Shown one piece after another: positions 25,786 through 54,398 of a stretch of 64,000 nt of DNA (within the stretch, counting starts at the first letter, position 1; each line of letters begins with the position of its first letter). This stretch comes from Patescibacteria group bacterium. Lineage in GTDB: Bacteria > Patescibacteriota > Microgenomatia > UBA8517. The notes under the pieces were generated by a model that searched no databases, had not been told where the DNA came from, and was given only the letters and a program-made list of their open reading frames with translations. Made by a program: the position numbers and the translations under genes. The stretch lies in the NCBI GenBank assembly GCA_036835125.1, contig DAITMO010000001.1, positions 702,216 through 766,215 on the forward strand. Reading direction: 5' to 3'.

Positions 25786-26499
25786 ATGCCTAATAAAAAG
25801 ATACTTACTCATAATGTTCTTGTTGTTGTAGCCTTAGGGTTGGCATATTTTATTGCCCAAACTGAGCTTTCCACTTATAGCCTTCAAATATCAGGTCTTC
25901 TTGTTGCAATTTATATGTTTATTTCTTTTCTTATAAGGAAAAAGTTTTTGACTCCCACTTCCCGAGTAACATTTGATATTTTCGTTTTTTCATTTGCAGT
26001 ATCATTTTTACTCTTTACAACAGGGGGCTTTACTTCCCCAATATTCTTTTTGACATACTTTTTACTTTTTGGAATTGCCCTACTTTCCAAACCCTCTACC
26101 TCAATAGTTGCAGCCGTAGTCTTTGTTGTAATTTTTATACTAACTCCAAGATCCGACTACTGGGCAGAAATTTTACAAATTGCTTCCCTCCTTTCCATTG
26201 CTCCAATTTCTGCTATGTTTGGAAAACAACACATACAAATATTCCAGGATAGTCAGAAAATAAATGTATTAAAAAATATAAGCCAAGACTTTGCCGATGA
26301 AGTCAAAACCCAAAAAGAAGAGGTTAAAAGCTGGACTGACGGGGACTTTAGAGAAAAATTGGTTGAAATGCAAAAACACCTTAAAGAGTTATCAAATGAT
26401 CCTGAGATACCTGAAGAAAAAAAGACAAAAATTAAAGTTCTCAATGAACAAATATATGATCTCTTTCAAAGTGGAAAAAAGATGGAAAAAGAGATATAG
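25786..26499 (+). CDS. Membrane protein (about 5 TM) with cytoplasmic coiled-coil C-terminus
   Basis: 237 aa; hydrophobic helices in first 150 aa, charged helical tail; first + strand gene of the surface island. Confidence 0.45.
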   Translation: MPNKKILTHNVLVVVALGLAYFIAQTELSTYSLQISGLLVAIYMFISFLIRKKFLTPTSRVTFDIFVFSFAVSFLLFTTGGFTSPIFFLTYFLLFGIALLSKPSTSIVAAVVFVVIFILTPRSDYWAEILQIASLLSIAPISAMFGKQHIQIFQDSQKINVLKNISQDFADEVKTQKEEVKSWTDGDFREKLVEMQKHLKELSNDPEIPEEKKTKIKVLNEQIYDLFQSGKKMEKEI

Positions 26500-26506
26500 A
26501 ATAGCT

Positions 26507-27262
26507 ATGTCAAAAAGAGCCTCAAAAATACTTGCTTCTTCACTTCCCCCTTTAATTACCATTTCTTTAATGGCTCTATTTTTTTTCTCTTTTTATACTC
26601 ACACACATGCCCAAGCAACAATTGAGTCTGATAACTTCAAAATTCAAATGCCAAATTTTAATAGTGGAGCAGGAATTCCATCATCAAATAATTACAAATT
26701 GAATACTACGATAGGACAAACCGCTCCTGGTCTTTTTTCATCAAATGGATACTTAGTTAGATCAGGCTTTCAATACATAAACTCAATAATTCCCTTCTCA
26801 TTTTCCATAAGTAACTTCTTAATTAATTTTGGAATACTCACCCCAGGCACACCATCTACTGTCACAAGCACTCTCACTGTTTCTTCAGGTGGAGCAGGAG
26901 GATACAAAGTAACAGCAAGAGAATCTGATTACCTAAAATCAACAGAAAGCTCAATTCCAGACGCAACTTGTGATGATGGCTTTTGTACACAGTCCTCTGC
27001 CACACCCTGGACGCTTGATACAGCCTATGGTTTTGGCTACAACATGCAGGGAGACGACGTCCCTGCTGATTTCACGGACTCAACATACTACCGTCACTTT
27101 GCAAATCAAGCACAATCCCAAGCAGATCAAATTGTTATGTCAAGTGCTGTTGTGGGAAGAGGAAGAGTTTCCACAATTACATATAAAATAAATATCTCAG
27201 GAATCCAAGCAGCAGGACAATATCAAAATAATATACTTTTTACAGCAATACCTAGTTTCTGA
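26507..27262 (+). CDS. Secreted surface protein, possibly WxL-like
   Basis: The ORF track's start at 26291 overlaps the upstream gene; ATG at 26507 gives a 252-aa protein with signal peptide MSKRASKILASSLPPLITISLMALFFFSF...AQA. It contains PWTLD (WxL-like motif) and its C-terminus ...AGQYQNNILFTAIPSF is paralogous to that of the 28320 gene. Confidence 0.45.
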   Translation: MSKRASKILASSLPPLITISLMALFFFSFYTHTHAQATIESDNFKIQMPNFNSGAGIPSSNNYKLNTTIGQTAPGLFSSNGYLVRSGFQYINSIIPFSFSISNFLINFGILTPGTPSTVTSTLTVSSGGAGGYKVTARESDYLKSTESSIPDATCDDGFCTQSSATPWTLDTAYGFGYNMQGDDVPADFTDSTYYRHFANQAQSQADQIVMSSAVVGRGRVSTITYKINISGIQAAGQYQNNILFTAIPSF

Positions 27263-27290
27263 TAATAGAATCAAAAAAACATAAACAAAA

Positions 27291-28265
27291 ATGAGTAAAA
27301 TAATTAAAATTTCACTACTTTTACCTTTATTTATATCTTTAACGTTCCTATTGCCATTTCTATATTCAAACCCAATACATGCTCAAACTCTTGGTCTTTC
27401 AATTACTCCCCCAATTAGCGAAATAGTAATAATGCCAGGAAAAGAAACAGTCCAGAATTTTACAATTTCCAATGATGGAAACGATGGAATTGCAAGTATT
27501 TATTTGATTCCTTTTAGAGCTCAAGGAGAAGAAGGAAGTGTGGCACTTGATGAAGAAAGTATTATTGATGATTCTTCTCTATTCATGCCTTGGTTCAATT
27601 TAGTTTCTCCTGTTGGAAATCTTGGAGAAAAATTCTATATGGCAGGAGGGTCTCAAAAGACTGTGACTCTTTATATTTCTCCCCCATTGGATGCACCCAA
27701 TAAAGACTACTACTTCACTCTTATTTTTGAACTTGATAATGAAATTCCTCAAGGAAGTATAGCAACAGGATCAGAAAGTCGCGCAAGAATTGGAACAAAC
27801 ATTTTAATTTCCGTATCAGACAGAGAAAACCCCTCAAAAAATCTTAACATTACAGAATTCTCAGCCCTCAAAGTAATCGACTCACTTTCCAAACTCAAAT
27901 ACACAGTTCGAATTGGGAATTATGGTTCATACTTTTTAAAAACCATAGGTAAAATATCAATTGATCCAATTATTGGAGAAATCGAAACACTATCACTTGC
28001 CCCACTAAATGTAATATCAGATTCTATAAGAAATATTTCCTGCATAGAAAGTGAGGAAATTGTAAAATGCCAATCATCCAAAAATGTTCTTTTTGGAGTG
28101 TATAAATCAACTATTTCTGTAAGTGCTGATGAGATAGGACAAATTCAGGAAAAAACTATAACAACTGTAGCTTTTCCATTTTCAATTCTTTCTGTAGCTA
28201 TATTGATATTCATAACCTACAGGATAATTAAAAGAAATAATGATAAAAAAATCGCTTCTACTTGA
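27291..28265 (+). CDS. Cell-surface protein with signal peptide and C-terminal TM anchor (DUF916/CscA-like topology)
   Basis: 324 aa; signal peptide, conserved I-P-P-I...PGKETVQNFTISNDGND block, C-terminal TM (FPFSILSVAILIFITY) plus basic tail RIIKRNNDKK. Confidence 0.5.
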   Translation: MSKIIKISLLLPLFISLTFLLPFLYSNPIHAQTLGLSITPPISEIVIMPGKETVQNFTISNDGNDGIASIYLIPFRAQGEEGSVALDEESIIDDSSLFMPWFNLVSPVGNLGEKFYMAGGSQKTVTLYISPPLDAPNKDYYFTLIFELDNEIPQGSIATGSESRARIGTNILISVSDRENPSKNLNITEFSALKVIDSLSKLKYTVRIGNYGSYFLKTIGKISIDPIIGEIETLSLAPLNVISDSIRNISCIESEEIVKCQSSKNVLFGVYKSTISVSADEIGQIQEKTITTVAFPFSILSVAILIFITYRIIKRNNDKKIAST

Positions 28266-28319: not shown

Positions 28320-29771
28320 TTGTTGCTGATGAAAAAGGATAAAATCTGGAAAAGTACTATAGCTGCCTCTATATTTTTATTGGCTTTCTATTTTTTAGTT
28401 ATCTATCCTTCTAAATCCAATGCTTCAACCTTAACTTCTGCTTCAGCAGCCCTTAGTAATCCTAGACTTTCATTTAGAGCTCTTTCTTCTGCAGGTTCAT
28501 CTGGCACATCATCAATAACCATAAGTTCATCTACAAGCTACCCCGATTTCAACACAAACAATCTTTTTGGTGGAGACAATGTTTGTTTTACAAATGAAGG
28601 ATTGGATGGTTGTATTGGAGACACTTATTATTCAGTGGCCACAATTTCAGGAGCAACCACTTTTAGTGTTTCATCTCCTCTTACGAATGATGTTGATGCT
28701 TCAGGTTATGCTATAGCAACCCAATCAGGAAATCTAACTCTAACATTTACACTTGTCAGTGCAATACCTGCAGGTGGAGATATTCTGATAAGAATTCCTG
28801 TTGCATCAACTGGAGACACTAATGATGGATTTCCAGACACAGGAACAACAAACACTACAAACGGGTTTGATTTTAATAAACTAGAGCCCACTAGTGTTCA
28901 GGTCACTACAAGCGGAGGAACTTGTTCAGATGGGTGGGATACTCCTGTTGTTGCATCCGCTAGTGGAACCATAACAATAACAAAATCGACTTCTGTTTGT
29001 ACAGGATCGACTGTGACAATTGTTGTTCCAAATTTAGTAAACCCAACCCCCTACATAACAAACCATACTCAAGGAACTGCTGATACCTATAAAATAGGAA
29101 TAATAACCAGAGATGGGTCAGATAATCAACTTGATACTACAAATGTAATGGTTGCTCCTATTGAAGGAGTTTTTGTTTCAGCAACAGTTGATCAAACTCT
29201 TTCTTTTACAGTTGAAGGGGTTGACACCGGTCAAACCGCCTGTGGAGCAACAACAAATGTTGGAACAACTGCTTTTGCCGTTCCTTGGGGAACCCTCGCC
29301 GTTGCCAACCAATTCTCAAATGCCGCTCAACTTCTAACAGTATCAACGAACGCAGCTAGTGGCTACACTGTAGTTGTTGAACAAAATGATCAAATGGGCT
29401 TAAACGGTAAAGTTTGTACAGGAGCGGCAGGAGAATCTGACAATTGTATTGAAGATACAACTTGTGATGGAGCAAGCTGTAACTATGCAAACTATGGAGA
29501 TTGGGCAACTGCTACAAATAACGGACTCGGGTACTCTCTAGCAAGTGTCTCAGGAACTCCTGCAAAATTCTATTGGGGTGGAGCTAGCTATTTCTACGCA
29601 AGAAGCTTCCCTGATCAGGAAGATTCTCAAGCAAAACAAACAATACTTGAGGCTTCTTCCCCTGTTTCTGAAGATCAAGCAAATGTGTGTTTTAGGATTT
29701 CAATCTCAGCGACTCAACCTGCAGGATACTACTATAACAAAGTTAAATACACAGCAACTGCAAGGTTTTAA
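28320..29771 (+). CDS. Ser/Thr-rich secreted surface protein (WxL-like C-terminus, paralogue of 26507 gene)
   Basis: 483 aa; signal anchor, S/T-rich low-complexity N-half, AVPWGTLAV motif, C-terminus ...AGYYYNKVKYTATARF. Confidence 0.5.
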   Translation: MLLMKKDKIWKSTIAASIFLLAFYFLVIYPSKSNASTLTSASAALSNPRLSFRALSSAGSSGTSSITISSSTSYPDFNTNNLFGGDNVCFTNEGLDGCIGDTYYSVATISGATTFSVSSPLTNDVDASGYAIATQSGNLTLTFTLVSAIPAGGDILIRIPVASTGDTNDGFPDTGTTNTTNGFDFNKLEPTSVQVTTSGGTCSDGWDTPVVASASGTITITKSTSVCTGSTVTIVVPNLVNPTPYITNHTQGTADTYKIGIITRDGSDNQLDTTNVMVAPIEGVFVSATVDQTLSFTVEGVDTGQTACGATTNVGTTAFAVPWGTLAVANQFSNAAQLLTVSTNAASGYTVVVEQNDQMGLNGKVCTGAAGESDNCIEDTTCDGASCNYANYGDWATATNNGLGYSLASVSGTPAKFYWGGASYFYARSFPDQEDSQAKQTILEASSPVSEDQANVCFRISISATQPAGYYYNKVKYTATARF

Positions 29772-29812: not shown

Positions 29813-30904
29813 ATGATAAACAATAATCAACAAATAAAAGTAGGTAAAATAAAATTGTCTTCTCTATTAACGGTTTTTCTATTTGTTTTTTCTTTTGTTT
29901 ATCTATCCAATCCTTCTTCAATTAGTGCTCAATCAATTATTCCTCTTATTGTTGCACCAGCTAGGCAGTCAATTGAGGCAGACCCTGGCAAGTCTGTTAA
30001 TTTTTCAGTACGTTTTTATAACACCTCAGAGGAACCCATCTCAGGAATATTCAAGGCTTCCGATTTTATTGTGAGTGATAACCTTGGTACTCCCCAATTT
30101 TTAGAAGGCCCAACTGTTTTGTCTGATAAATTTGCAGCAGCCAAATGGACAACATTAAGTATAGAAAAAGGAACAATTTCAGGAGGTGGAATGATTACGG
30201 TCAATGGAACAGTAAGTCTTCCAGAGAATGCTTCTCCAGGCGGAAAATATTTTGCAGTATTTTTTGAACCAGACGTAAGTTTGCCATCAGAAAATGGTGA
30301 GCCTCAACAGGAAGCTTCTCTTGTTTCAACAAGGATCGCAGGACTCATATATTTAAGAGTGTCGGGACCAATCTCTGAAAGCGCAAGTATTGTGAAGTTT
30401 GTTTCTCCAAGCTTTTCTGAATATGGACCAATTACAATCACAACTGAGGTTAAAAATGGTGGAGTCTACCACATCTCTCCAACAGGACAAATCACAATTA
30501 AAAACATTTTTGGGAAAGACGTATCAAAAATAAAAGTAGAAGGCTTTAATATATTTCCTGAGGCTTCCCGTGTAATTGAGGCAAAAGCAGGAGAAAAATG
30601 GATGATAGGAAGGTTTAGTGCAGAGCTTAATCTGTCATACGGAGAGACCGGGAAGATACTCTCCTCTACCCTCTATTTCTGGGTATTTCCTTGGAAACTT
30701 GCTCTCATAATCGCCCTAGGAATTGCAATCATAATTCTTGTTATCAGCATGATTACTAATAGGTTCATTAAAAAAGAAAAGAAACTTGAAGAAGCTTTGG
30801 AAGAAGAAAAAGATGAACTTCAAAAATTAAAAGAAAAATACCAGGACTTAATGAGCTCACACTTTGGATCTACCCCTGATGACCCCGATACACCTAAAGA
30901 GTAA
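29813..30904 (+). CDS. Cell-surface protein with signal peptide and C-terminal TM anchor plus coiled-coil tail (DUF916-like topology)
   Basis: 363 aa; IIPLIVAPARQSIEADPGKSVNFSVRFYNTSEEP block parallels the 27291 gene; C-terminal TM LALIIALGIAIIILVISMI then charged helical tail. Confidence 0.5.
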   Translation: MINNNQQIKVGKIKLSSLLTVFLFVFSFVYLSNPSSISAQSIIPLIVAPARQSIEADPGKSVNFSVRFYNTSEEPISGIFKASDFIVSDNLGTPQFLEGPTVLSDKFAAAKWTTLSIEKGTISGGGMITVNGTVSLPENASPGGKYFAVFFEPDVSLPSENGEPQQEASLVSTRIAGLIYLRVSGPISESASIVKFVSPSFSEYGPITITTEVKNGGVYHISPTGQITIKNIFGKDVSKIKVEGFNIFPEASRVIEAKAGEKWMIGRFSAELNLSYGETGKILSSTLYFWVFPWKLALIIALGIAIIILVISMITNRFIKKEKKLEEALEEEKDELQKLKEKYQDLMSSHFGSTPDDPDTPKE

Positions 30905-30992: not shown

Positions 30993-31991
30993 ATGTCACA
31001 TAAAAAAAATACAAAGATACTCTTCTTATTAATTACTGCACTGGGTGTATTTATACTCTATCTTGTAACCTCACTAAATCAATTTAGAAGCCACTCTTTG
31101 GTGGAAGGCGAATCAACTATTGTATCTGATGATATAACTGTTTCAGCGACCATTGGAACAACTGCAAAAATGATTGTTGAGGGATATGCTCCGTCCTCTT
31201 CAAAAGTAATATTAACTGGTGAAGGAATCTTTGAAGAAAGAAGTGCAGAAGTCAGTGGATGGTTTTCATTTGATAATATTCATAAAACAGGAAGTACAGA
31301 TGAGTATCCTGAGCTTTGTCTCATCGCCTACTTAGGAAATTTATCTACTCAACCAACATGTCTTCCTTCTCTTCCCGGAGGAAATAATAGCTATAATATT
31401 GGCCCAGTAATTCTTTCCCCCATAATTTCAATTGAACAAAATGTATTTCTACTCGGAACCCAAGTAGCCCTAAATGGAACAACAATTCCCAACACTCCTG
31501 TAAACATATATTTTGCAGAAAATAGTAGCGCTCTTGCCTTAGTACAAAAAGCTCTTGCATATAATATTCCTGCATATCAAGTAGAGTCAGATAGTAAAGG
31601 AGACTTCCAGCTAAACTTGCCTTCCAATACCATTGCCAAATGGAAAGTATATGCAGCAACTACCTATCTAGATTCATCCTCTCCCAAGAGTAATACCTTA
31701 AATTTCACTGTCCAAAATAATATTAGTTACTATCTTAAAAAGGTCTATGAAACAATAGTAAAAACAACAACCATTATTACCTCTGTTGTTACCGCTAAAA
31801 CAGATGAAGAAGTTCGTCAAGAAAATACAGAAAGATTAACAAATATTCCTATTGAAAAAATTAATATACTTAGATCTAAAATGCCATATTTTGTTATGGT
31901 TTTAGAAGGACTAATACTAGTTCTTTTAATAGTCTTTATAGTCATAAGAAAGAAGAAAAAAAGAAAGAAAAAGGATGTTAATCAAAAGTAA
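30993..31991 (+). CDS. Surface protein with N-terminal signal anchor and C-terminal TM plus poly-Lys tail
   Basis: 332 aa; C-terminus MPYFVMVLEGLILVLLIVFIVIRKKKKRKKKDVNQK; A8 tract in codons 3-6. Confidence 0.45.
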   Translation: MSHKKNTKILFLLITALGVFILYLVTSLNQFRSHSLVEGESTIVSDDITVSATIGTTAKMIVEGYAPSSSKVILTGEGIFEERSAEVSGWFSFDNIHKTGSTDEYPELCLIAYLGNLSTQPTCLPSLPGGNNSYNIGPVILSPIISIEQNVFLLGTQVALNGTTIPNTPVNIYFAENSSALALVQKALAYNIPAYQVESDSKGDFQLNLPSNTIAKWKVYAATTYLDSSSPKSNTLNFTVQNNISYYLKKVYETIVKTTTIITSVVTAKTDEEVRQENTERLTNIPIEKINILRSKMPYFVMVLEGLILVLLIVFIVIRKKKKRKKKDVNQK

Positions 31992-32658: not shown

Positions 32659-33102
32659 AAAAAATCAACTTCCTATATACATCAAAAACGAAGTGCCGAA
32701 AGTTCGGTATAAAACAACTCCTAAAATATCTAGCAGATAAGAAGTCTGGTTGCCAAAAAATAGCCTCATAGTAAATTTACCTCACATATAAAACAGCCGA
32801 TCATTTTGATATATTTAATATGATCTATAGTTAATTGATAATTTAGATACATGCTTGTTCTCCGTAACATTATTAACATAGAAATAATTACCGCAATTTA
32901 CCGCATAAAAATAATCGAGGCTAAATTTTTGATCTAAAATATCCAAAAATAGGTCTTATGGGTTACTAATATTTCTATGAAAATGAGTGAAACAAGCGTA
33001 AATAATATGCGGTAAATAAATTACAGGTGCTGTGAAAGAGTCTCAAACTTATTGACTGTCATGTATCAATAATTGATTTACACACTTTATATAAAAGGCT
33101 AT

Positions 33103-33140: not shown

Positions 33141-33171
33141 TATAATCCGTATAATCTAGCCTCAATTCAAA

Positions 33172-48300: not shown

Positions 48301-51300
48301 TCTACAACATCAGAAATGATGCTGGAACAGAAATAAGCAACTCAGGATCATCAATACCTATTGGGCAATGGTCTCATGTTGTTTTAACAAAAAGTGGTTC
48401 AACATATTCACTCTTTGTCAACGGAAAGATGACATCTTTTACTAGTACAACTCCATCAGCACCATATACATTCAATACATCAACAATTGGTCTATACAAT
48501 CGTTTGTCTCCTGCTAATTATTTCAATGGTACCATTGATTCCACCCGTATTTATAACCGTGCCCTCACTACCACTGAAATTCTTAGTAACTACAACTCCT
48601 CCCGTATTGAACTCCAAACCAGAGTTGGTGCCTCAACCGATCCTAACGATGGAACGTGGGAAGCATGGCGCCCAACAACTTCTGAAACAGTAATTGATAA
48701 TATGGACAACCCTCTTGATTGGGCCACTCCTTCTGCAACAATTTGGTCGGCAGGAGCTCTTGTTGCAACCTCTTCTTCCACTTTTCCTTTAGCAGAAGGA
48801 ACAAAAAGTATGAAGGTCCAAACTGGACAAAACACTTCCATGACTAGTGTTGTTGGTATGTGGCACCTGGATGAAACCGGAGGAACTGGAGCATATTTGA
48901 AGGATTCAACAGCAAATGCAAATAACGGCACTCCGACAGGGACTACCATTGTCAATGGAATTTCTAATAAAGCCAGAAAGTTTACCGGTGCAACTAATTA
49001 TGTTCATATCGGAAGTACTGCTCTACTTGCTAATTCATCAACTAATTCAATTGAAGCTTGGGTATATTTGACCACCACTGGAGTTAATCAATCTATTTAC
49101 GGTGAAGGTAATTCTGCTGGAGCACATTACTATTTTTTGTATGTGACCAGTGGTAACGTTGCTAGATTTGATATGAGTAACGGAACACAATGTAATGCTG
49201 TTGGTTCTACGACACTTGCTGCTAATAAATGGTATCACCTCGCTGGTGTTAGAAATGCAGGAAATTGTTACGTTTATGTCAACGGCGTCCAAGACGGGAC
49301 AGGAGCGGGAAATCCTGGTGCCTTTACATTAAACTCTGTTGATATCGGAGATTTATCGAATAATGGTTCCCATTTTTATTTTAATGGATACATCGACGAA
49401 GTACGTGGTAGTAATATTGCTCGTTCTGCCGAAGAAATTGCAGAAAGTTACCGTATGGGCAGAGACCATAGAATAAGTAAGACTGTTTCTTCAACAGATT
49501 TATCCTCCTCCACCAAACTCCCCTTCTATGTTGCGAGCGACCGCTTGGGAACTTTTATGCAAATGACATATGGAGAGTCTAATTTTGCAAACTATGAATC
49601 TGACGCCTATACATCTGGCTTTTGGCACATGGATGAACAATCGGGTTCAGGTGCCTATATAAAAGATGCCTCAGGTACAGGAAACAATGGAACACTAACT
49701 GGAACAACGTTTACGCAGGGACAAATTGGAAAAGGAAGATATTTTAATGGTACAAGCAGTGACTATTTAACTGTTCCAAATACTCTTGATACTCCACTAA
49801 AAACAGGAACTTTCAGTGTAAGTGGTTGGGTTAAAGCCTCAGCTTTTACAAACGAGGTAGTTTTGATAAACAGAGGCATTGTATCGTCTGGAGGCAATTA
49901 CTATGGAATGGGGCTGTATTTTACAAGTACCGGATTAACGTTTAATAGATATATTGGAAATACAACAACCACCGCTGTTACTTATTCTTTTACTCCAACT
50001 GTTGGTACGTGGTATTTTGCTGCAGTAACTTATGATGTAAGTACAGGAGCTACAAATCTATATCTTAATGGGCAACTTGTTGCGTCAGGCACCCTATCGA
50101 CCAGCAATGTCTCCTATCATGCAAGCTACGATCTGGGGTATGCCATAGGAGCCTTGAGAAGAAATATTTCTGACAGATATTCAAACGCAATTATAGACGA
50201 AGTTCGTATTGATAATACCGTCCGTACTGCTGACCAAATCCGCCAAGCATATGAAGTAGGAAAAAGAACCCACAACATAACAATTGATTTTAAAGCAAAA
50301 CTAGATTCAGGAAATTTAATTGCTGACTCTTCAGATAAAAGCTTCATTGTTGATGAAACTGCCTATGGCTCCACCTACATGGCAAGCCATTTATTCTTGG
50401 GAGATAAAATTATTGTTAAAGAAAACTATGATGGAACAGAATATATAGCTCAAGGAACAGTGAGTGCTGTAAACATGACTACAGGAGCAGTTAGTGTGAC
50501 TTCCTGGGATACAGGAAGTACTTTCCCTTCAGGGGGATTCACGGTAAACGCAACAGTATTTAAATGGCAAAGAGAATATGTGAGCTTGACAGGTTCACTT
50601 TCTACTCATAGGGATGCTGTAACAAAGCTTACTTATAAAATAAACGATGGATCTATCGGAGCAAACATCTGGCTTGATGACTTGCGAAGCACAACCGGAT
50701 ATTTAGATACACCAGAAGGCTCTACTATTACATCTTCAATTGGAAATAGATATTTCCAATATCGAGCAATCATTGATTCCAGTGATCCTGCAGTTTCTGC
50801 CTCACTAACATCAGTAACACTAGATTATGTAAGTAACTCTGCACCAAACACCCCAACACTTGATAGCCCATCAGATACAGCAACAAACCAAAGTCTAACT
50901 CCACAATTAAAGACCACAACAACTGACAGTGATTCTGATTATGTACGATATAAAATATTACTATGTAAAGATTCTGATATGAGTGTCTCATGTCAAACAT
51001 TTGATCAAACTAGCTCTCAAACAGGATGGAGTGGGCAAAACACTGAAAGTAACACTGCTTATACTTCTGGAACACAAGCTACATATACTATACAAAGTGC
51101 TCTCGATACAGGTACAACGTATTATTGGAAATCATATTCAATTGACCCTGCAGGAATAAATATGTGGAGTTCGACTCAGAGCTCACCATATTCTTTTGCA
51201 ACAACTCGCGCCCCTTCTGCCCCAACTTCCCCAGAAACCCAGGGGCAAACAAATCCAACAGGACTAACAACCACCACACCATACTTTTCAGCAATTCATA

Positions 51301-52262
51301 ACGATTTAGATGGAGATAGTGCAAATTACTACCAAATACTAGTCAACACAGCTTCAGATTTTTCTGGAACATCTATGTGGGATAGTGGAAAAACTGGTAT
51401 GACGACAACAACAAACACTTCAAGATCCCCAAATCTTACATATGCAGGAAATTCTCTTTCCTTGGGCCAAACATATTATTGGAAAATAAAATTCTGGGAT
51501 ACAATCGGAGTTGAGGGAGAGTATTCTAACACTGCTCAATTTTCTCTAAATGGAGTCCCTGATATTCCAACTCTTGATTTGCCAACAAACGGAGCAACAG
51601 GACAAATTTTTGTTCCAGTTCTTAAAACAACAACATCAGATGACGATTCTGACTATCTAAGATATAAAATCCAGATTTGTTCAAACATAGGAATGACTAC
51701 TGATTGTCAAACATTTGATCAAACTAGCTCTCAAACAGGCTGGAGTGGGCAAAACACTGAAAGTAACACTGCTTATACTTCTGGAACACAAGCTACATAT
51801 ACTATACAAAGTGCACTCGAAGTGGGAACAACTTATTTTTGGAGATCATATGCAACAGATCCTGGTGGAACTAATACTTGGAGTTCTACTCAATCCTCAC
51901 CATATAGTTTTTCAACACTTACTGCTCCTATTGCCGCTTCTCAGTGTCGTATATTGGAAAGCAGGGATGATAGCAGCTTAACTTTAGTTTGGACAGACAA
52001 TGCTACAAATGAAGATTATTATGAAGTTCAAAGATCAGTTGATGGGGGTGCGTTTGCCGTACTTGAAACTGCAATCGCTGCAAATACAACAAGTAATGTA
52101 GACACTTCTGTGTCTGATGGTCACACTTATCAATATAAAGTGGCTCCTTATTTTTCTACTGGACCAGCCTATTCATCGTGGTGTACAACTTCTACTCTTA
52201 ATTTACAACTTGGAACATTTTCCATCAAAGGACTTGATTTGAAAGGATTAATATTAAGATGA
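45306..52262 (+). CDS. Giant (2318 aa) membrane-anchored surface protein: basic cytoplasmic N-terminus, TM, Gly-rich block, four LamG/ConA-like lectin domains, FN3-like modules
   Basis: Uninterrupted 7.0 kb ORF starting 3 nt after the upstream stop; TM IAITITAIPVAVIWGLLLY; (GGN)n block nt 46474-47150; four LamG-like repeats each starting G[LMF]WH[ML][ND]E[TQ][SG]G and ending with an I[DS]E[FV][KR]I-type strand; three FN3-like modules with a conserved Cys pair; classic FN3 at the C-terminus. Confidence 0.85.
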   Translation: MSRIDLGNHISTYLKLVIKMTTSKLSKIVRKINYYIKYFVVNSHILSRKAKRKLNHIPPLSKLPQTIKEELIVFFKKFTIFVKKLPKFIRNFPPLVKRKVPTYIKLIKKHKNGIAITITAIPVAVIWGLLLYKWITTPQPAIVTNSKNSDYHFQGKSKLYKFSIGDTKTNEPKVEFSLSKEGNKKIIFYPASGNTGRDKPEEKGNKITFKDVYGNTDIVYTPIKNGIKEEIIVKKPNEYHVYPFFLELEGVNINPTFNISNGVFYDSDGNYLFNFEKPFAIDAKGNRTDNVGISIKTDSNSGKLVALLTVDKNWISDPARTYPITIDPTIVHDTNAELDTGQLNRILSKTAPTSPATGGTITYKDGYTIHTFTSSGTFTPTTSMNVEILVVGGGGGGNDGSGGGGGGGGGGVVYQPLYAVTAQEYTVTVGDGGARNTSGNNSVFDTITAVGGGKGGGYAAAGSAGGSGGGSGRDTTSAAGGSGTAGQGYNGGRATAASYGSAGGGGGAGQVGYNGGTDSGTLSGTYSRGGDGIGYSISGTITYYGGGGGGSWHSGTVMSSGGLGGGGKGGGYLNSGGYNGTAGTANTGGGGGAADSRSGTAGAGGSGIIIIRYPTFPTLETYYQELSTDPYTVGLWHMNETSGTTTVSDSSGNSNTGTSVSSTNVTTGVLGNSRSFNGSSDSISTSLNGLPSSTNTVTVEFWAYMASGLTNYQAIQASADDVANRFNIHLNWGGTTYWDFGAYDGGGRLTATCDSSLLNKWVHWAFVSEGGVGQKIYINGVLVASDNTTSTFTKGAKTLYIGRDTTTNFFKGMIDEFKISNNARTPEEIKLNASRRPYSTYTSDVIDLTNVASWNSLYWNGLGFTTADGETATASATSSLVAQWNFNETSGTTAASGGTCGTSCNGTLTSFASTGSQDAAAGTGWTSNNKRWGAGALMFDGSNDYMSVSSSGIIDPTSEYTIESWIKPTSTGPYTIYGQGNTGNNTVMLVLNVYNGNLFYNIRNDAGTEISNSGSSIPIGQWSHVVLTKSGSTYSLFVNGKMTSFTSTTPSAPYTFNTSTIGLYNRLSPANYFNGTIDSTRIYNRALTTTEILSNYNSSRIELQTRVGASTDPNDGTWEAWRPTTSETVIDNMDNPLDWATPSATIWSAGALVATSSSTFPLAEGTKSMKVQTGQNTSMTSVVGMWHLDETGGTGAYLKDSTANANNGTPTGTTIVNGISNKARKFTGATNYVHIGSTALLANSSTNSIEAWVYLTTTGVNQSIYGEGNSAGAHYYFLYVTSGNVARFDMSNGTQCNAVGSTTLAANKWYHLAGVRNAGNCYVYVNGVQDGTGAGNPGAFTLNSVDIGDLSNNGSHFYFNGYIDEVRGSNIARSAEEIAESYRMGRDHRISKTVSSTDLSSSTKLPFYVASDRLGTFMQMTYGESNFANYESDAYTSGFWHMDEQSGSGAYIKDASGTGNNGTLTGTTFTQGQIGKGRYFNGTSSDYLTVPNTLDTPLKTGTFSVSGWVKASAFTNEVVLINRGIVSSGGNYYGMGLYFTSTGLTFNRYIGNTTTTAVTYSFTPTVGTWYFAAVTYDVSTGATNLYLNGQLVASGTLSTSNVSYHASYDLGYAIGALRRNISDRYSNAIIDEVRIDNTVRTADQIRQAYEVGKRTHNITIDFKAKLDSGNLIADSSDKSFIVDETAYGSTYMASHLFLGDKIIVKENYDGTEYIAQGTVSAVNMTTGAVSVTSWDTGSTFPSGGFTVNATVFKWQREYVSLTGSLSTHRDAVTKLTYKINDGSIGANIWLDDLRSTTGYLDTPEGSTITSSIGNRYFQYRAIIDSSDPAVSASLTSVTLDYVSNSAPNTPTLDSPSDTATNQSLTPQLKTTTTDSDSDYVRYKILLCKDSDMSVSCQTFDQTSSQTGWSGQNTESNTAYTSGTQATYTIQSALDTGTTYYWKSYSIDPAGINMWSSTQSSPYSFATTRAPSAPTSPETQGQTNPTGLTTTTPYFSAIHNDLDGDSANYYQILVNTASDFSGTSMWDSGKTGMTTTTNTSRSPNLTYAGNSLSLGQTYYWKIKFWDTIGVEGEYSNTAQFSLNGVPDIPTLDLPTNGATGQIFVPVLKTTTSDDDSDYLRYKIQICSNIGMTTDCQTFDQTSSQTGWSGQNTESNTAYTSGTQATYTIQSALEVGTTYFWRSYATDPGGTNTWSSTQSSPYSFSTLTAPIAASQCRILESRDDSSLTLVWTDNATNEDYYEVQRSVDGGAFAVLETAIAANTTSNVDTSVSDGHTYQYKVAPYFSTGPAYSSWCTTSTLNLQLGTFSIKGLDLKGLILR
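50994..51102 (+). repeat. 109-nt near-identical intragenic direct repeat, copy 1 (second copy at 51708-51816)
   Basis: caaacatttgatcaaactagctctcaaacagg[a/c]tggagtgggcaaaacactgaaagtaacactgcttatacttctggaacacaagctacatatactatacaaagtgc; a single mismatch over about 109 nt; a more diverged third copy at about 45016 in the upstream gene. Confidence 0.8.
51708..51816 (+). repeat. 109-nt near-identical intragenic direct repeat, copy 2
   Basis: See copy 1; 714 nt (238 codons, in frame) apart. Confidence 0.8.
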
Positions 52263-52334
52263 TGCTGTATGATCTCATTGACACTAAATTTTTCACAATC
52301 GATACTGTATAGATAGTATTGTTAGTTTTTTGAT

Positions 52335-54278
52335 ATGCAAAAAGCTCTAGACAAAATACAAAAATTTATAATTATCTTGGGAGTTGTTTTATTCCCTGTT
52401 TTTATACTTCCAGGATTTTCTTCACCATACTTTGTTCCAAAAGAGATATTTCTTGCCGGAATTGTGTCTATTGCTTTAATTGCCGGACTTCTTAAATCTA
52501 TTATTAATGGTGAAATAAAATTCTCATACGGTAAGTTTGATTTTGCATTAACTCTACTAACTCTGGTTTATATACTTTCTGCCATTATCAAAACTCCCAA
52601 TAAAATGGAGGCATTTTTTTACCCAGGCACAGCTACTTTTGCAATACTTGCATTAGTTTTATATTTACTTATTAATCAGTTTACAAAGTATAGTAAAAGG
52701 AACACTTTAGTAGCAGTCTTTGTGTCTGGAATTCTTCTTTCCATATTTATGCTCTTTACAGAACTTAAAGTCTTTTCTTTCATCCCCCAACTACCAAGTT
52801 TTATGAGTAGTATTAATTTCAATTCAATGGGTTCTACTATTGGTTCTATTGTTTTTCTATTAGCAGTACTTTCTATTGGAATTATCTATGTTATTAAAGA
52901 AAAAGATATCGTCAAAAAAGTATTTTTTAGTATTTCCAGCTTGATAATAGTTGCAACAATAGTACTAACAGGAACCAAACTATTTACTCAAAAATCTCAG
53001 GAATTAATACTCCCCTCTTGGCAAACAAGTTGGATAATAACAATAGAATCGTTTAAAAACAGTCCCATATTCGGAGTTGGGCCAGGTAACTATATTACAG
53101 CTTTTAACATATATAGACCTCTCTCATACAACCAAACAGATTTATGGCAAACAAAATTCTCAAGCGCAAACAATTTCTATTTCACTCTATTTACAGAACT
53201 TGGTTTAGCAGGCACTATTGCTATTATCATTCTTTTAATTGCAGTTTATAGAAAAATATCCTTTGATATGACAAAAAAGAAGTCTAATTGGGAAATAGTT
53301 TCTTTAATCATCCTTCTTTTAGCACTTTTTTTCATACCAATAGCACCAGCTCTTTTGGTTCTATTAATGATTCTTCTTTCAATTTTCTCAAGTTCTGAAG
53401 AGAAGTATGTTGTAATTGCAACAAATAAAATATCCTCTCTTATTGTTTCTGCTCCTGTCATTATTGCAATAATTCTAACAGCATTCTTTGGAGCCAAGGC
53501 AGTTGCTGCAGAAATGAATTATAAGAAATCCCTTGATGCACTAACCAAAAATGATGCCAGAGGAACATATGATTATATGACCAAGGCTGCTACCCAAAAC
53601 CCATACGTTGACCGCTATCGCGCTTCGCTTGCTCAAGTTAACCTTGCTCTGGCAAATTCTATAGCAACCAAAGAAGAACTTACAGATATTGACCGCTCAA
53701 CTATAAGCCAACTTGTTCAACAAGCAATATCTGAAGGGAAAGCAGCAGTTACCTTAAATATTGGAAGGTCTGCTAATTGGGAAATTTTGGCACAAATCTA
53801 TAGAAGTATTCTTGCTTTTGCTCAAGGAGCTGATCAGTTTGCAATCCAAACTTTTTCCCAAGCCGTGGCATTAGACCCAATAAATCCTGAACTTAGAGTT
53901 TCTCTTGGTGGTGTCTATTATGCTTTGGGAGACTATGACAATGCCATAACTTCTTTTCAACTCGCTGTTGCTGCAAAGAATAACCTTGCCAATGCGCATT
54001 ACAATTTAGCTGCAGCCTATGCAGCCAAGAAAGACTATGATAAAGCAATAAAAGAGATGAATACTGTTCTTTCTTTAGTAGATGAAAACTCTGAAGATTA
54101 TAAAACTGCACAAACAACTTTATTAGAATACCAAACACAAAAACCTGTAAATACAGAAAATCAGATTTCTGAAAATTCTTCTGCTACCTTGACCCAACCA
54201 GAAACAGTTGAGGAACCTATAATCAAACCACCAATTGAGCTACCTGAGGAAGCTACCCCACCCGCTGTTACTGAATAA
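52335..54278 (+). CDS. O-antigen ligase (Wzy_C) family membrane protein with C-terminal TPR repeats; candidate O-oligosaccharyltransferase
   Basis: 647 aa; about 10-12 TM with a large periplasmic loop (Wzy_C-like, NSPIFGVGPGNY); C-terminal TPR-like repeats (AHYNLAAAYAAKKDYDKAIKEM). Confidence 0.65.
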   Translation: MQKALDKIQKFIIILGVVLFPVFILPGFSSPYFVPKEIFLAGIVSIALIAGLLKSIINGEIKFSYGKFDFALTLLTLVYILSAIIKTPNKMEAFFYPGTATFAILALVLYLLINQFTKYSKRNTLVAVFVSGILLSIFMLFTELKVFSFIPQLPSFMSSINFNSMGSTIGSIVFLLAVLSIGIIYVIKEKDIVKKVFFSISSLIIVATIVLTGTKLFTQKSQELILPSWQTSWIITIESFKNSPIFGVGPGNYITAFNIYRPLSYNQTDLWQTKFSSANNFYFTLFTELGLAGTIAIIILLIAVYRKISFDMTKKKSNWEIVSLIILLLALFFIPIAPALLVLLMILLSIFSSSEEKYVVIATNKISSLIVSAPVIIAIILTAFFGAKAVAAEMNYKKSLDALTKNDARGTYDYMTKAATQNPYVDRYRASLAQVNLALANSIATKEELTDIDRSTISQLVQQAISEGKAAVTLNIGRSANWEILAQIYRSILAFAQGADQFAIQTFSQAVALDPINPELRVSLGGVYYALGDYDNAITSFQLAVAAKNNLANAHYNLAAAYAAKKDYDKAIKEMNTVLSLVDENSEDYKTAQTTLLEYQTQKPVNTENQISENSSATLTQPETVEEPIIKPPIELPEEATPPAVTE

Positions 54279-54327
54279 AAGATCTTCTTCCTGAAATGCT
54301 ATAATTCTGTAACCAAGGGTAACTTAT

Positions 54328-54398
54328 GGGCTGTTAGTACAGTGGTAATATACCTCATTCGCATTGAGGAGACGCCGGTTCGATTCCGACACAGTCCA
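54328..54398 (+). tRNA. tRNA-Ala (anticodon CGC)
   Basis: Acceptor GGGCTGT/ACAGTCC with G3:U70 Ala identity pair, anticodon stem CCTCA/TGAGG with loop TTCGCAT, T loop TTCGATT, discriminator A; one C-A mismatch in the T stem; CCA not encoded. Confidence 0.7.

What the first reader, a model, noticed from the sequence alone, without database searches (positions are those of the whole stretch)
25786..54398. About 28 kb cell-surface island on one strand, ending at tRNA-Ala
From 25786 to 54278 almost every gene (14 of 15, all but one on the + strand) encodes a signal-peptide or TM-anchored protein. These include two giants of 9.7 kb and 7.0 kb, and the block ends in a Wzy_C/TPR membrane glycosyltransferase followed immediately by tRNA-Ala(CGC). 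Surface-protein genes therefore occupy about 44% of the window. The content fits an attachment apparatus for an obligate episymbiont, and the tRNA boundary suggests it could be an exchangeable genomic island.
Basis: inference. Interest (0 to 1): 0.7.

Follow-up and report, generated by a model that had tools for sequence, protein, structure and literature searches.

The report
Conserved CPR pilus and giant-adhesin locus
The 28-kb block is not a mobile island but a conserved chromosomal locus of a Microgenomatia (CPR) bacterium that encodes a recently described "Pam"-type pilus, two giant adhesin-like surface proteins and a glycan ligase-like enzyme, most likely the cell's apparatus for contacting other cells.

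Summary
The observation mostly holds. Positions 25786-54278 carry 12 genes (not 15), 11 of them on the + strand. All 12 have a signal-like or transmembrane segment. They include genes of 9.7 kb and 7.0 kb and a Wzy_C/TPR gene, and tRNA-Ala(CGC) follows 49 nt later.

The island reading fails. The block lies on the 5' side of the tRNA. It has no recombinase catalytic domain and no copy of the tRNA 3' end. Its synonymous codon usage matches the flanks. In relatives with 75-77% identical LeuRS it sits in the same place, between LeuRS and tRNA-Ala/M23 peptidase/Rho. Only the interior, the giant genes, varies.

Genes 26495-31991 match the Pam pilus operon of CPR bacteria (bioRxiv 2026). They encode a PamT-like small subunit, a two-domain pilin whose inter-domain linker is its most conserved segment, two PapD-like chaperones with C-terminal membrane helices, and a membrane-anchored terminal protein. 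A second unit with its own conserved promoter follows. It encodes a tail-fibre-like giant with a cytoplasmic integrase-N-terminal-like domain, a LamG/FN3 giant and the Wzy_C/TPR protein.

This is a new member of a known kind. The chaperones' closest solved structure is WxLIP of Firmicute WxL clusters, a link the Pam preprint does not mention.

The parts
25786..26499 (+). 237-aa protein with 5 hydrophobic segments and a charged, coiled-coil-like C-terminal tail. It is the first gene of the locus and its function is unknown.
   Evidence: KD profile. No Pfam or NCBIfam family. An ortholog directly precedes the PamT-like gene in L007, L008 and L016 (66-70% identity) and in L017/L018 (29-30%).
26495..27262 (+). 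PamT-like small pilus subunit: signal peptide plus a Pam-type C-terminal pilin domain. Gene callers start it at 26507 (251 aa).
   Evidence: NCBIfam NF058579 CPR_pilus_PamT at E 9.7e-13 over model positions 7-241 of 241 (48 bits, cut-off 240). NF058581 CPR_Pam_pilin_C at E 2.8e-9 (37 bits, cut-off 55). Its C-terminal 129 aa are 29% identical to the C-terminal domain of the 483-aa pilin (E 4e-15).
27291..28265 (+). Membrane-anchored chaperone 1: signal peptide, beta-rich body, C-terminal transmembrane helix.
   Evidence: Hydrophobic segments at 7-25 and 290-308. It is a paralog of chaperone 2 (25% identity over about 300 aa, E 1e-11).
28320..29771 (+). Major two-domain pilin (483 aa; gene callers give 480 aa).
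   Evidence: AF2 model with pLDDT 81 shows beta domains at 39-278 and 294-481 joined by a low-confidence linker. The best Foldseek PDB hit is the CfaE tip adhesin of chaperone-usher CFA/I fimbriae (E 1.3e-4). The linker 278-292 is the most conserved 15-aa window of the diverged family. 16/26 and 17/46 family members hit NF058581, and no other family is hit. An 11/12 promoter-like site lies at 28262-28290.
29813..30904 (+). Membrane-anchored chaperone 2 (363 aa).
   Evidence: AF2 model with pLDDT 81 shows two beta-sandwiches (45-153, 175-291) plus a helix at 294-350. Foldseek PDB hits: WxLIP 9i1y/9i25 at E 2e-13, then the chaperone-usher chaperones CfaA, CsuC, CupB2, FimC, Caf1M and DraB at E 5e-10 to 5e-7.
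30993..31991 (+). PamR-like terminal/anchor candidate: N-terminal hydrophobic segment, about 270 aa outside the membrane, C-terminal transmembrane helix and a poly-Lys tail.
   Evidence: Segments at 9-27 and 300-318. Its position after the second chaperone is conserved in all loci. No sequence match to any family or PDB chain. The fold was not tested.
31978..32658 (-). Membrane-anchored Big_1 (bacterial Ig-like group 1) protein with a Ser/Thr/Pro-rich stalk. It is the only gene of the block on the - strand.
   Evidence: Pfam Big_1 at E 1e-9, 38.8 bits against a cut-off of 34.9. Position and orientation are conserved in L007, L008, L009, L016, L017 and L018.
32659..33171 (.). 513-nt divergent intergenic region. 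It holds a conserved promoter for the giant-gene unit (TTGACA-17-AATAAT at 33102-33130) and TTACCGCA repeats (32888-32895, 32898-32905; inverted copy 33008-33015).
   Evidence: Spacer length is 508-569 nt in 7 loci. TTGACA is invariant, and the -10 region is nearly identical in the 4 closer relatives. The promoter scan scores it 11/12. The motif count is 5 against 0.8 expected. No Rfam family.
33172..42870 (+). Giant 1 (3232 aa): two cytoplasmic integrase-N-terminal SAM-like domains (aa about 10-220), one transmembrane segment (282-300), and about 2900 aa outside the cell that are Gly/Ser/Thr-rich and tail-fibre-like.
   Evidence: Phage_int_SAM_1 at E 1.3e-20 with 2 stretches, and no catalytic domain. 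Transmembrane segment. Its N- and C-terminal parts are orthologous to giants in relatives that carry Peptidase_S74. The window copy itself has no S74.
42888..43676 (+). 262-aa protein anchored by an N-terminal transmembrane segment.
   Evidence: Segment at 12-30. Only sub-threshold Pfam hits. Its homolog forms the N-terminal part of a 1341-aa ORF in L013.
43660..45303 (+). 547-aa secreted protein whose C-terminal module is shared with Giant 2.
   Evidence: Signal-like segment at 4-22. Residues 400-535 are 57-69% identical to Giant 2 residues 1844-1966 and 2080-2220. DNA repeat families D3/D4.
45306..52262 (+). Giant 2 (2318 aa): N-terminal transmembrane anchor, a Gly-rich domain, four Laminin_G_3 (concanavalin-like lectin) domains and FN3/Ig-like modules.
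   Evidence: Pfam Laminin_G_3 at E 5e-93 (4 stretches), Gly_rich_2 at E 1e-21, Ig_Rha78A_N. Transmembrane segment at 113-131. Present in L013 and L010, absent from L011.
52335..54278 (+). Polytopic Wzy_C (O-antigen ligase / O-oligosaccharyltransferase family) protein with C-terminal TPR repeats.
   Evidence: Pfam Wzy_C at 39.9 bits (cut-off 31.7) plus TPR families. At least 10 hydrophobic segments. It is the last gene of the locus in L009, L010, L011, L012, L013, L014 and L015.
54328..54399 (+). tRNA-Ala(CGC), a conserved neighbour and not a junction.
   Evidence: ARAGORN and Rfam. An orthologous tRNA follows the Wzy_C/TPR gene in L012 and L015. No copy of its 3' end occurs elsewhere in the window.

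Best explanation
The block is a vertically inherited chromosomal cell-surface locus of a Microgenomatia (Woesebacteria-like) CPR bacterium. It is organised as two + strand transcription units separated by a short divergent gene.

Unit 1 (25786-31991) is a Pam-type pilus operon. The proposed pathway is as follows. Subunits are exported by Sec. Two PapD-like chaperones, tethered to the cytoplasmic membrane by C-terminal helices, cap the incomplete Ig-like C-terminal domain of each subunit. The small PamT-like subunit starts the fibre. Copies of the 483-aa pilin are added when the conserved inter-domain linker of one subunit inserts as a donor strand into the C-terminal domain of the next. The last gene product, anchored by a C-terminal helix, ends and tethers the filament.

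Unit 2 (33172-54278) has its own conserved promoter. It encodes a tail-fibre-like giant anchored by one transmembrane segment with a cytoplasmic integrase-N-terminal-like domain, two smaller surface proteins, a LamG/FN3 giant, and a Wzy_C/TPR enzyme. That enzyme most likely transfers lipid-linked glycans onto these Ser/Thr-rich surface proteins or onto a wall polymer.

Together these products form the outermost layer with which the cell contacts other cells. The tRNA-Ala is only a conserved neighbour.

Shown here: gene content, folds, homologies, conserved synteny, native composition, and absence of island hallmarks. Inferred: donor-strand assembly, filament formation, the glycan-transfer role, host attachment, and functional coupling of the two units.
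For: Pilus operon:
- NCBIfam PamT and Pam_pilin_C hits on ORF 26495-27262 (E 1e-12 and 3e-9).
- The 483-aa pilin shares that C-terminal domain (E 4e-15). Its family hits only NF058581 (16/26 and 17/46 members).
- The AF2 pilin model has two beta domains and a disordered linker. That linker is the most conserved segment of the family, as the Pam preprint reports for the donated strand.
- The chaperone model has two beta-sandwiches plus a transmembrane helix. It matches WxLIP and the chaperone-usher chaperones CfaA, CsuC, FimC and Caf1M.
- The gene order (small subunit, chaperone, pilin, chaperone, C-terminally anchored protein) mirrors the published pam operon. The preprint also reports a tail fibre-like protein at the centre of pam neighbourhoods and homologs in Microgenomatia.

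Not an island:
- The order M16-ArgRS-MBL-ComEC-ComEA-LeuRS-[locus] recurs in L007, L008 and L016 (LeuRS 75-77% identical).
- The order [locus]-tRNA-Ala-M23-(SIMPL)-Rho recurs in L012 and L015.
- L008 and L013 lie on one contig and give a 27.7-kb block.
- GC3 is 0.224 against 0.252 in the flanks. Synonymous codon usage correlates at 0.967 against a flank-to-flank baseline of 0.974. The extra GC sits at codon position 2, reflecting Gly/Ser/Thr/Ala-rich proteins.
- No repeat of the tRNA 3' end and no flanking repeats.
- No recombinase catalytic domain among the 42 ORFs scanned.
- No pilin or chaperone relative in 2.9 million viral contigs.

Family size: 1391 cluster representatives at 50% identity.

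Wzy_C role: the Pfam hit is above threshold. It is the last gene of the locus in 7 loci. PglL-type O-oligosaccharyltransferases belong to the WaaL/Wzy_C family and are often encoded next to their targets (PMC3643930 abstract). An unexplained modification on Ser356 of PamA is reported in the preprint.
Against: - The NCBIfam Pam models match below their curated cut-offs, and the 483-aa pilin itself gives no direct hit.
- No Pam structure was in the PDB copy, so no direct structural comparison with PamA-E, PamC/D or PamR was possible.
- The PamR-like fold was not tested.
- The best structural match of the chaperone is WxLIP, from clusters that are not known to make filaments.
- ATP synthase genes, reported as conserved neighbours of pam operons, are not in this window.
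- Linkage of unit 2 to the pilus could be inherited gene order without functional coupling.
- No expression or imaging data exist for this organism.
Confidence: 0.75

Rival explanations
1. This is the first reader's view: a tRNA-Ala-linked, exchangeable genomic island carrying surface-protein genes.
For: A tRNA gene abuts the block. Giant 1 begins with integrase-type SAM-like domains, and truncated homologs are annotated 'site-specific integrase, partial'. Two relatives (L011, L013) lack the tRNA and the right-flank synteny after the Wzy_C/TPR gene. The interior gene content differs between genomes.
Against: The block lies 5' of the tRNA, whereas tRNA-integrating elements lie 3' of it (established knowledge). 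There is no catalytic recombinase domain and no tRNA 3'-end or other boundary repeat. Codon usage is native. Position and gene order are the same next to LeuRS in three relatives and next to tRNA-Ala/M23/Rho in two. Block proteins are orthologous, with divergence comparable to or somewhat greater than that of the flanking genes.
Confidence: 0.04
2. Unit 1 builds a WxL-type surface complex rather than a filament. Small and large subunits would be held on the wall or membrane by membrane-anchored WxLIP-like proteins, as proposed for the WxL clusters of Firmicutes.
For: The top Foldseek hits of the chaperone model are WxLIP 9i1y/9i25 (E 2e-13), ahead of the chaperone-usher chaperones. 12 of 29 family members weakly match Pfam PF06030 WxLIP_PGBD (best E 0.0033). 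The cluster logic is the same: a small and a large protein sharing a C-terminal domain, plus a two-Ig-domain protein of 324-363 aa with a C-terminal helix.
Confidence: 0.12
3. The block is a neighbourhood of functionally unrelated surface genes. The pilus operon, the giants and the Wzy_C/TPR gene would be adjacent only through inherited gene order in a small genome.
For: A separate conserved promoter serves unit 2. The content of the giant region is variable. The right flank also holds unrelated envelope genes. ComEA/ComEC are interleaved with the pilus genes in L017/L018.
Against: The order pilin-chaperone-anchor-Big_1(-)-SAM/giant is kept in 7 loci down to 48% pilin identity, including lineages where the left flank has changed. 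The Wzy_C/TPR gene always closes the locus. The Pam preprint independently finds a tail fibre-like protein central to pam neighbourhoods in other CPR classes.
Confidence: 0.15
4. The block is a degenerate prophage or a tailocin-like element, given its tail-fibre-like giant, integrase fragment and PHROG matches.
For: Giant 2 matches PHROGs that include a 'virion structural protein'. Orthologs of Giant 1 carry Peptidase_S74. SAM-like integrase domains are present.
Against: There are no capsid, terminase, portal, sheath or baseplate genes. The PHROG matches cover only the LamG and Gly-rich modules. No relative of the pilin or the chaperone occurs in viral contigs. Composition is native and chromosomal position is conserved.
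Confidence: 0.02

Closest known systems
Pam pilus system of CPR bacteria (PamA/B/E pilins, PamT tip, PamC/D chaperones, PamR anchor; Ca. Mycosynbacter amalyticus; bioRxiv 10.64898/2026.03.03.709456)
   Same: It is restricted to CPR and all components are Sec-exported. A small single-domain subunit and a two-domain pilin share a C-terminal Ig-like domain. Two PapD-like chaperones carry C-terminal membrane helices. A terminal protein with a C-terminal helix follows. A tail-fibre-like gene lies nearby, and the conserved linker is the candidate donor strand.
   Different: Sequence similarity is remote, and the NCBIfam Pam models score below their cut-offs. Only one large pilin gene is present (L017 has two). 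Extra conserved genes not described for the Saccharimonadia operon are present: a 5-TM protein, Big_1 on the opposite strand, a giant fused to a SAM-like domain, a LamG giant and Wzy_C/TPR. No ATP synthase, CorB or MFS neighbours are present, and the neighbours here are LeuRS and ComEA/ComEC.
WxL clusters of Firmicutes (small WxL, large WxL, WxLIP = DUF916 + DUF3324 + TM helix; PMC10599100; PDB 9i1y, 9i25)
   Same: WxLIP is the best structural match of the chaperone. Size (about 340-365 aa) and topology match: signal peptide, two Ig-like domains, C-terminal helix. Both have small and large subunits sharing a C-terminal domain, and both occur in monoderm envelopes.
   Different: Neither subunit has a Pfam WxL domain. 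PF06030 is hit only weakly, by 12 of 29 relatives and not by the window proteins. Two chaperone paralogs are present here instead of the typical one. WxL proteins are described as peptidoglycan-bound, not filament-forming.
Chaperone-usher pili, especially class 5 CFA/I (CfaA chaperone, CfaE tip adhesin)
   Same: The chaperone has the PapD-like fold. The pilin is a two-domain Ig-like subunit. Assembly is presumed to be donor-strand complementation and exchange.
   Different: There is no outer membrane and no usher. The chaperones are membrane-anchored. The donor strand is an internal linker rather than an N-terminal extension.
Wzy_C family enzymes (WaaL O-antigen ligase, PglL/PilO pilin O-oligosaccharyltransferases)
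   Same: The protein is polytopic with a Wzy_C domain above the Pfam threshold, and it is encoded next to Ser/Thr-rich surface proteins.
   Different: It has a C-terminal TPR domain and sits in an organism without LPS. The substrate is unknown and the catalytic residues were not examined.
Phage tail fibres/spikes with the Peptidase_S74 intramolecular chaperone
   Same: Orthologs of Giant 1 in relatives have an S74 domain with the SDxRLK motif. Giant 1 contains repeated GIGTxxP...L.V motifs.
   Different: The window's Giant 1 has no detectable S74. It is a cellular membrane-anchored protein with a cytoplasmic SAM-like domain. The locus has no virion genes.

Membership tests
Pam pilus system (CPR) | Subunits carry the Pam C-terminal pilin domain (NCBIfam NF058581) | tested here: inconclusive
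   ORF 26495-27262 scores E 2.8e-9 and 37 bits against a cut-off of 55. The 483-aa pilin gives no direct hit, but 16/26 close and 17/46 diverged family members hit NF058581 and nothing else. The two window subunits share the domain (E 4e-15).
Pam pilus system (CPR) | Single-domain tip subunit PamT (NF058579, equivalog) | tested here: inconclusive
   E 9.7e-13 with alignment over model positions 7-241 of 241, but 48 bits against a cut-off of 240. This makes it a homolog, not an equivalog by NCBI's threshold.
Pam pilus system (CPR) | [quoted passage not shown] | tested here: met
   The AF2 model shows domains at 39-278 and 294-481 with the linker 284-289 at pLDDT below 50. The linker window 278-292 ranks first for conservation in the diverged alignment, and the C-terminal strand ranks second. 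Conserved cysteines are present.
Pam pilus system (CPR) | Two PapD/FimC-like chaperones, each with a C-terminal transmembrane helix | tested here: met
   Model and Foldseek hits to CfaA, CsuC, CupB2, FimC and Caf1M (E 5e-10 to 5e-7) and to WxLIP. Helix at 294-350. The paralog at 27291-28265 has the same topology.
Pam pilus system (CPR) | PamR: RbmA-like tandem FnIII protein with a C-terminal helix that terminates and anchors the pilus | tested here: inconclusive
   ORF 30993-31991 has the right position and a C-terminal transmembrane segment with a basic tail. No sequence match was found anywhere.
Pam pilus system (CPR) | Forms extracellular filaments by donor-strand exchange | not testable with these tools
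   This needs multimer modelling, cryo-EM or cryo-ET.
tRNA-integrated genomic island | Integrase (catalytic domain) at the island edge | tested here: not met
   Only Phage_int_SAM N-terminal domains are present, inside the 3232-aa membrane protein. No PF00589-type domain occurs in any of the 42 ORFs scanned.
tRNA-integrated genomic island | Direct repeat of the tRNA 3' end at the distal boundary, with the island on the 3' side of the tRNA | tested here: not met
   The 23-mer search allowing 3 mismatches found only the tRNA itself. No k-mer of 12 nt or longer from the tRNA occurs elsewhere, and there are no boundary repeats. The block lies upstream of the tRNA 5' end.
tRNA-integrated genomic island | Atypical composition and presence/absence among relatives | tested here: not met
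   GC3 and synonymous codon usage match the flanks. The block is present at the same site in L007/L011, L008/L013, L016, L012 and L015. Only the interior giants vary.
WxL cluster (Firmicutes) | WxL domain on the small and large subunits | tested here: not met
WxL cluster (Firmicutes) | WxLIP (PF06030 + PF11797 + transmembrane helix) | tested here: inconclusive
   The fold is the best match (9i1y, E 2.3e-13). The window proteins give no Pfam hit. 12 of 29 relatives hit PF06030 weakly (best E 0.0033). A profile search of the PDB found no WxLIP at E <= 1.
Chaperone-usher pilus | Outer-membrane usher | tested here: not met
   No usher family appears among the ORFs of the block or the flanks. CPR cells lack an outer membrane (established knowledge).
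Wzy_C family (O-antigen ligase / O-OTase) | Wzy_C domain above the Pfam gathering score in a polytopic membrane protein | tested here: met
   39.9 bits against a cut-off of 31.7 at residues 157-298, and at least 10 hydrophobic segments. The activity and the acceptor are not testable here.
Tail fibre with S74 intramolecular chaperone | Peptidase_S74 domain with the SDxRLK cleavage motif | tested here: not met
   Absent from the window's Giant 1. Present in the orthologous giants of L009, L011, L016 and L017.

The most novel reading that the evidence does not exclude
Two linked ideas survive the evidence.

(1) The Pam pili of CPR bacteria and the WxL clusters of Firmicutes are one ancient monoderm chaperone-subunit system. 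Both have a membrane-anchored PapD-like protein (PamC/D or WxLIP) and small and large subunits sharing a C-terminal domain. WxL clusters might then also polymerise by strand insertion, and Pam chaperones might also bind the wall.

(2) In Microgenomatia this pilus is coupled to a giant tail-fibre-like protein whose cytoplasmic integrase-N-terminal (DNA-binding type) domain acts as a membrane-tethered contact sensor or regulator. It would act on the conserved TTACCGCA repeats in its own promoter region.
Probability: 0.2. Interest if true: 0.7.

Novelty: new member of a known kind. Interest (0 to 1): 0.45.

Why it matters
Microgenomatia have no cultured representative, and how they contact hosts is unknown. 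This window shows that a large and widespread pilin family (1391 cluster representatives) belongs to a complete Pam-like operon at a fixed chromosomal site. That operon is always followed by giant adhesin-like genes, which vary, and by a glycan ligase-like gene.

This yields concrete targets for proteomics, cryo-ET and glycoproteomics. It suggests where host specificity may reside, in the variable giants. It flags a recurrent misannotation, 'site-specific integrase', that can suggest mobile elements where none exist.

The structural link to WxLIP could connect a new CPR pilus to a long-known but poorly understood surface system of Gram-positive bacteria.

Tried and rejected
- Island hallmarks were all negative: tRNA 3'-end repeats, whole-window direct and inverted repeats (only coding repeats inside the giants and p607), and composition and codon usage.
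- Sequence searches of the PDB with the pilin profile, the chaperone profile, Giant 1 and the PamR-like protein gave nothing useful. Giant 2 and the Wzy_C/TPR protein gave only LamG and TPR hits.
- PHROGs gave only the integrase N-terminal domain for Giant 1, and LamG/Gly-rich module hits for Giant 2.
- A search for an S74 site in Giant 1, using the S74 regions of two orthologs, was negative.
- Rfam on 25000-56000 found only the tRNA, and nothing in the GC-rich ORF region 59700-61100.
- The homolog search with the Giant 1 N-terminus returned only 22 mostly truncated proteins.
Taxonomy therefore rests on the names of the nearest relatives: Woesebacteria, Shapirobacteria and Microgenomates.
- Viral-contig scans for the pilin and the chaperone were negative.
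- The promoter and terminator scans were not enriched over shuffles overall. Only the phylogenetically conserved site at 33102-33130 is given weight.

Full report
**Observation**

The window has a near-continuous + strand run of ORFs from 25786 to 54278. My ORF list and independent gene calls on the source metagenome contig (ENA ERZ724080 NODE_43) agree on 12 protein-coding genes. Their lengths are 237, 251-255, 324, 480-483, 363, 332, 217-226 (- strand), 3232, 262, 547, 2318 and 647 aa.

- The giants are 9699 and 6957 nt.
- The block is 28,493 nt, or 44.5% of the window.
- The last gene has Pfam Wzy_C above threshold plus TPR repeats.
- tRNA-Ala(cgc) follows after 49 nt.
- All 12 products have at least one hydrophobic signal or transmembrane-like segment, against 14 of 30 in the flanks (p = 0.0009).

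This enrichment does not end at the tRNA. The next three genes (M23/LysM peptidase, a 607-aa Cys-rich protein, SIMPL) are also anchored. So are ComEA, ComEC and an MBL-fold protein on the left.

**Is it an island? No.**

1. Geometry. The block lies upstream of the tRNA's 5' end, whereas elements that integrate into tRNA genes lie downstream of the 3' end (established knowledge).
2. Repeats. No copy of the tRNA 3' end exists elsewhere in the window, even with 3 mismatches. The whole-window repeat search finds only coding repeats inside the giants and the 607-aa protein.
3. Recombinase. No catalytic recombinase domain occurs in any of the 42 ORFs scanned. The only integrase signal is two N-terminal SAM-like domains at the start of the 3232-aa membrane protein. 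Truncated homologs of that N-terminus are annotated 'site-specific integrase, partial' in public records, which is a misannotation.
4. Composition. The slightly higher GC of the block comes from codon position 2 (0.468 against 0.367), because the proteins are Gly/Ser/Thr/Ala-rich. GC3 is 0.224 against 0.252. Synonymous codon usage correlates with the flanks at 0.967, against 0.974 between two halves of the flanks.
5. Synteny.
   - Loci from relatives with 65%, 51% and 64% pilin identity (L007, L008, L016; LeuRS 75-77% identical) show M16-ArgRS-MBL-ComEC-ComEA-LeuRS followed by the same genes in the same order.
   - Loci anchored on the Wzy_C/TPR gene show tRNA-Ala(cgc)-M23-(SIMPL)-Rho downstream in L012 and L015.
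   - L008 and L013 lie on one 482-kb contig, which gives a block of about 27.7 kb.
   - Two relatives (L011, L013) have lost the tRNA and the right-flank synteny, so the right edge is a rearrangement point in some lineages. No junction repeats are involved.
   - Deeper relatives (L017, L018; pilin 48-51%) have a different left flank (SecE-NusG-L11-L1), and ComEA-ComEC-MBL sits between the first three genes and the rest. They still keep the full gene set.
6. Viral contigs. No pilin or chaperone relative occurs in 2.9 million viral contigs.

**What varies**

The interior varies between genomes.
- L011 has a single 2314-aa giant between the pilus genes and Wzy_C/TPR.
- L009 has proteins of 806, 1122 and 237 aa.
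- L012 and L013 have other combinations.
- The N-terminal (aa 1-850) and C-terminal (aa about 2700-3232) parts of Giant 1 are orthologous across loci, and its middle is not.
- Giant 2, the 262-aa protein and the 547-aa protein are absent from L011.
- Modules are shared between genes. The C-terminal module of the 547-aa protein is 57-69% identical to two modules of Giant 2, and both giants share a Gly-rich block.

**Unit 1 (25786-31991) is a Pam-type pilus operon**

NCBIfam gave the lead. ORF 26495-27262 matches CPR_pilus_PamT (E 9.7e-13 over the whole model) and CPR_Pam_pilin_C (E 2.8e-9), both below the curated cut-offs.

The source is a 2026 preprint (10.64898/2026.03.03.709456). It reports cryo-EM of the filaments of the CPR parasite Ca. 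Mycosynbacter amalyticus. [quoted passage not shown] The operon also encodes PamE, a single-domain tip subunit PamT, two PapD/FimC-like chaperones with C-terminal membrane helices (PamC, PamD), and PamR, a C-terminally anchored terminator. Homologs were reported in Saccharimonadia and Microgenomatia. A tail fibre-like protein was central in the neighbourhood network.

The window reproduces this layout gene for gene: small subunit, chaperone, large pilin, chaperone, C-terminally anchored protein.

Tests:
- Pilin family. The 483-aa protein belongs to a large, well-conserved family. There were 627 hits in the word-indexed search, named Woesebacteria, Shapirobacteria and Microgenomates. A full HMMER scan found 1391 representatives at 50% identity.
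- Pilin structure. The AF2 model (pLDDT 81) has two beta domains and a low-confidence linker. Its best Foldseek hit is the two-domain tip adhesin CfaE of chaperone-usher CFA/I fimbriae.
- Shared domain. Its C-terminal domain is homologous to that of the PamT-like ORF (E 4e-15). Family members hit only NF058581 in NCBIfam (16/26 and 17/46).
- Linker conservation. In a diverged alignment (22% mean column identity), the most conserved 15-residue window is the linker 278-292, followed by the last strand of the C-terminal domain. The preprint describes the same pattern for the donor strand and its groove.
- Chaperone. The model (pLDDT 81) has two beta-sandwiches and a long C-terminal helix. It matches WxLIP (E 2e-13) and then the chaperones CfaA, CsuC, CupB2, FimC, Caf1M and DraB. 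The second chaperone gene is a 25%-identical paralog with the same topology.
- PamR-like protein. It has the right position and topology, but its fold was not tested.
- 5-TM protein. It always precedes the small subunit, even where the locus is split. It is therefore a candidate extra component of unknown role.

**Unit 2 (33172-54278)**

A 513-nt spacer, whose length is conserved in seven loci, separates the - strand Big_1 gene from Giant 1. It contains a conserved TTGACA-17-AATAAT promoter (TTGACA invariant in seven loci) and TTACCGCA repeats.

- Giant 1 has two cytoplasmic SAM-like domains. In relatives the first is a separate 172-179-aa ORF. One transmembrane segment and about 2900 extracellular residues follow. 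Its orthologs carry Peptidase_S74 with the SDxRLK motif, the hallmark of tail fibres, but the window copy does not.
- Giant 2 is anchored N-terminally. It carries a Gly-rich domain, four LamG-type lectin domains and FN3/Ig-like modules.
- The Wzy_C/TPR protein closes the locus in all seven loci where the end is visible. Wzy_C enzymes include the PglL/PilO pilin O-oligosaccharyltransferases, which are often encoded next to their targets (PMC3643930). The preprint notes an unidentified modification on a PamA serine. I infer, without a test, that this enzyme glycosylates the Ser/Thr-rich products of the locus or ligates a wall glycan.

**Mechanism and confidence**

Shown: content, folds, homologies, conserved position, native composition. 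Inferred: Sec export, chaperone capping, donor-strand polymerisation from the PamT-like tip to the PamR-like anchor, surface display of the giants, glycan transfer by Wzy_C/TPR, and use in contacting other cells. I put 0.75 on this overall picture and about 0.9 on 'not a tRNA-linked island'.

**Comparison and novelty**

The pilus part is a distant new member of the Pam system. The preprint had already detected pilin homologs in Microgenomatia by language-model search, but it analysed neighbourhoods only for close PamA homologs. The Microgenomatia locus architecture appears undescribed there. It comprises the 5-TM protein, Big_1, the SAM-fused tail-fibre-like giant, the LamG giant, Wzy_C/TPR, and linkage to ComEA/ComEC and LeuRS.

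One unanticipated result is that the chaperone's nearest solved structure is WxLIP of Firmicute WxL clusters. Those clusters have the same logic of small and large subunits plus an anchored two-Ig-domain protein. There is also faint recurrent sequence similarity to PF06030. The preprint does not mention WxL, and no paper in the library links WxL to donor-strand assembly beyond a review. This remains a lead, because the WxL domain itself was not detected.

**Verdict**

The island reading is refuted. The finding is of moderate interest, as a well-resolved example of a newly described CPR pilus system with a conserved but internally variable adhesin region.

Noticed in passing
window 60070-60795 (- strand): A 241-aa ORF has GC 0.48 and GC3 0.44, against about 0.20-0.29 in every other gene. 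It has no Pfam, NCBIfam or Rfam match. It is absent between Rho and the 937-aa membrane protein in relative L015. It is the only gene in the window that looks recently acquired.
   Followed up: partly
window 32659-33171: The spacer is long and its length is conserved (508-569 nt in 7 loci). It holds two direct TTACCGCA copies (32888-32905) and an inverted copy (33008-33015). The window has 5 copies against 0.8 expected, and TGCGGTAA is conserved in 6-7 loci. This may be an operator, possibly for the SAM-like domain encoded just downstream.
   Followed up: partly
window 33172-34191 (Giant 1 N-terminus); L007 14552-15070, L008 14693-15232, L016 15041-15559, L017 16171-16704: Integrase-type SAM-like domains occur without a catalytic domain, fused to or encoded just before a giant surface protein. 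Truncated homologs are annotated 'site-specific integrase, partial' in public records.
   Followed up: partly
window 20649-23340; L017 6433-8764; L018 about 6850-9050: ComEA-ComEC-MBL (DNA uptake) is always next to the pilus genes. In deeper relatives it lies between the first three pilus-locus genes and the pilin.
   Followed up: partly
L016 12659-13024; L017 16966-17250: Small PF05635 (23S_rRNA_IVP, four-helix-bundle) ORFs are inserted inside the locus in two relatives. The window has none.
   Followed up: no
window 973-5090 (- strand): Three consecutive ATP-grasp genes (RimK-like and ATPgrasp_ST, one with a Zn_protease-like C-terminus) lie next to a 7TM_transglut membrane protein. This may be a peptide-modification or ligase cassette.
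   Followed up: no
window 55735-57558: A 607-aa membrane-anchored protein has tandem Cys-rich repeats (CQCVNGR...CGHS; DNA repeats at 56067-56282). It has no family match and no homolog in L012 or L015. It is another variable surface gene beyond the tRNA.
   Followed up: partly
window 27291-28265 and 29813-30904; alignment A2: 12 of 29 members of the chaperone family weakly match Pfam PF06030 WxLIP_PGBD (best E 0.0033). The top structural hit is E. faecium WxLIP. This hints at homology between CPR Pam chaperones and Firmicute WxL-interacting proteins.
   Followed up: partly
window 8471-11568 (- strand): A 425-aa UppS-type prenyltransferase, an amino-acid-kinase-fold protein and a diphosphomevalonate decarboxylase-like gene lie in a row, followed by WecG/TagA at 12598-13368. 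These are lipid-carrier and wall-glycopolymer genes that could feed the Wzy_C/TPR enzyme.
   Followed up: no
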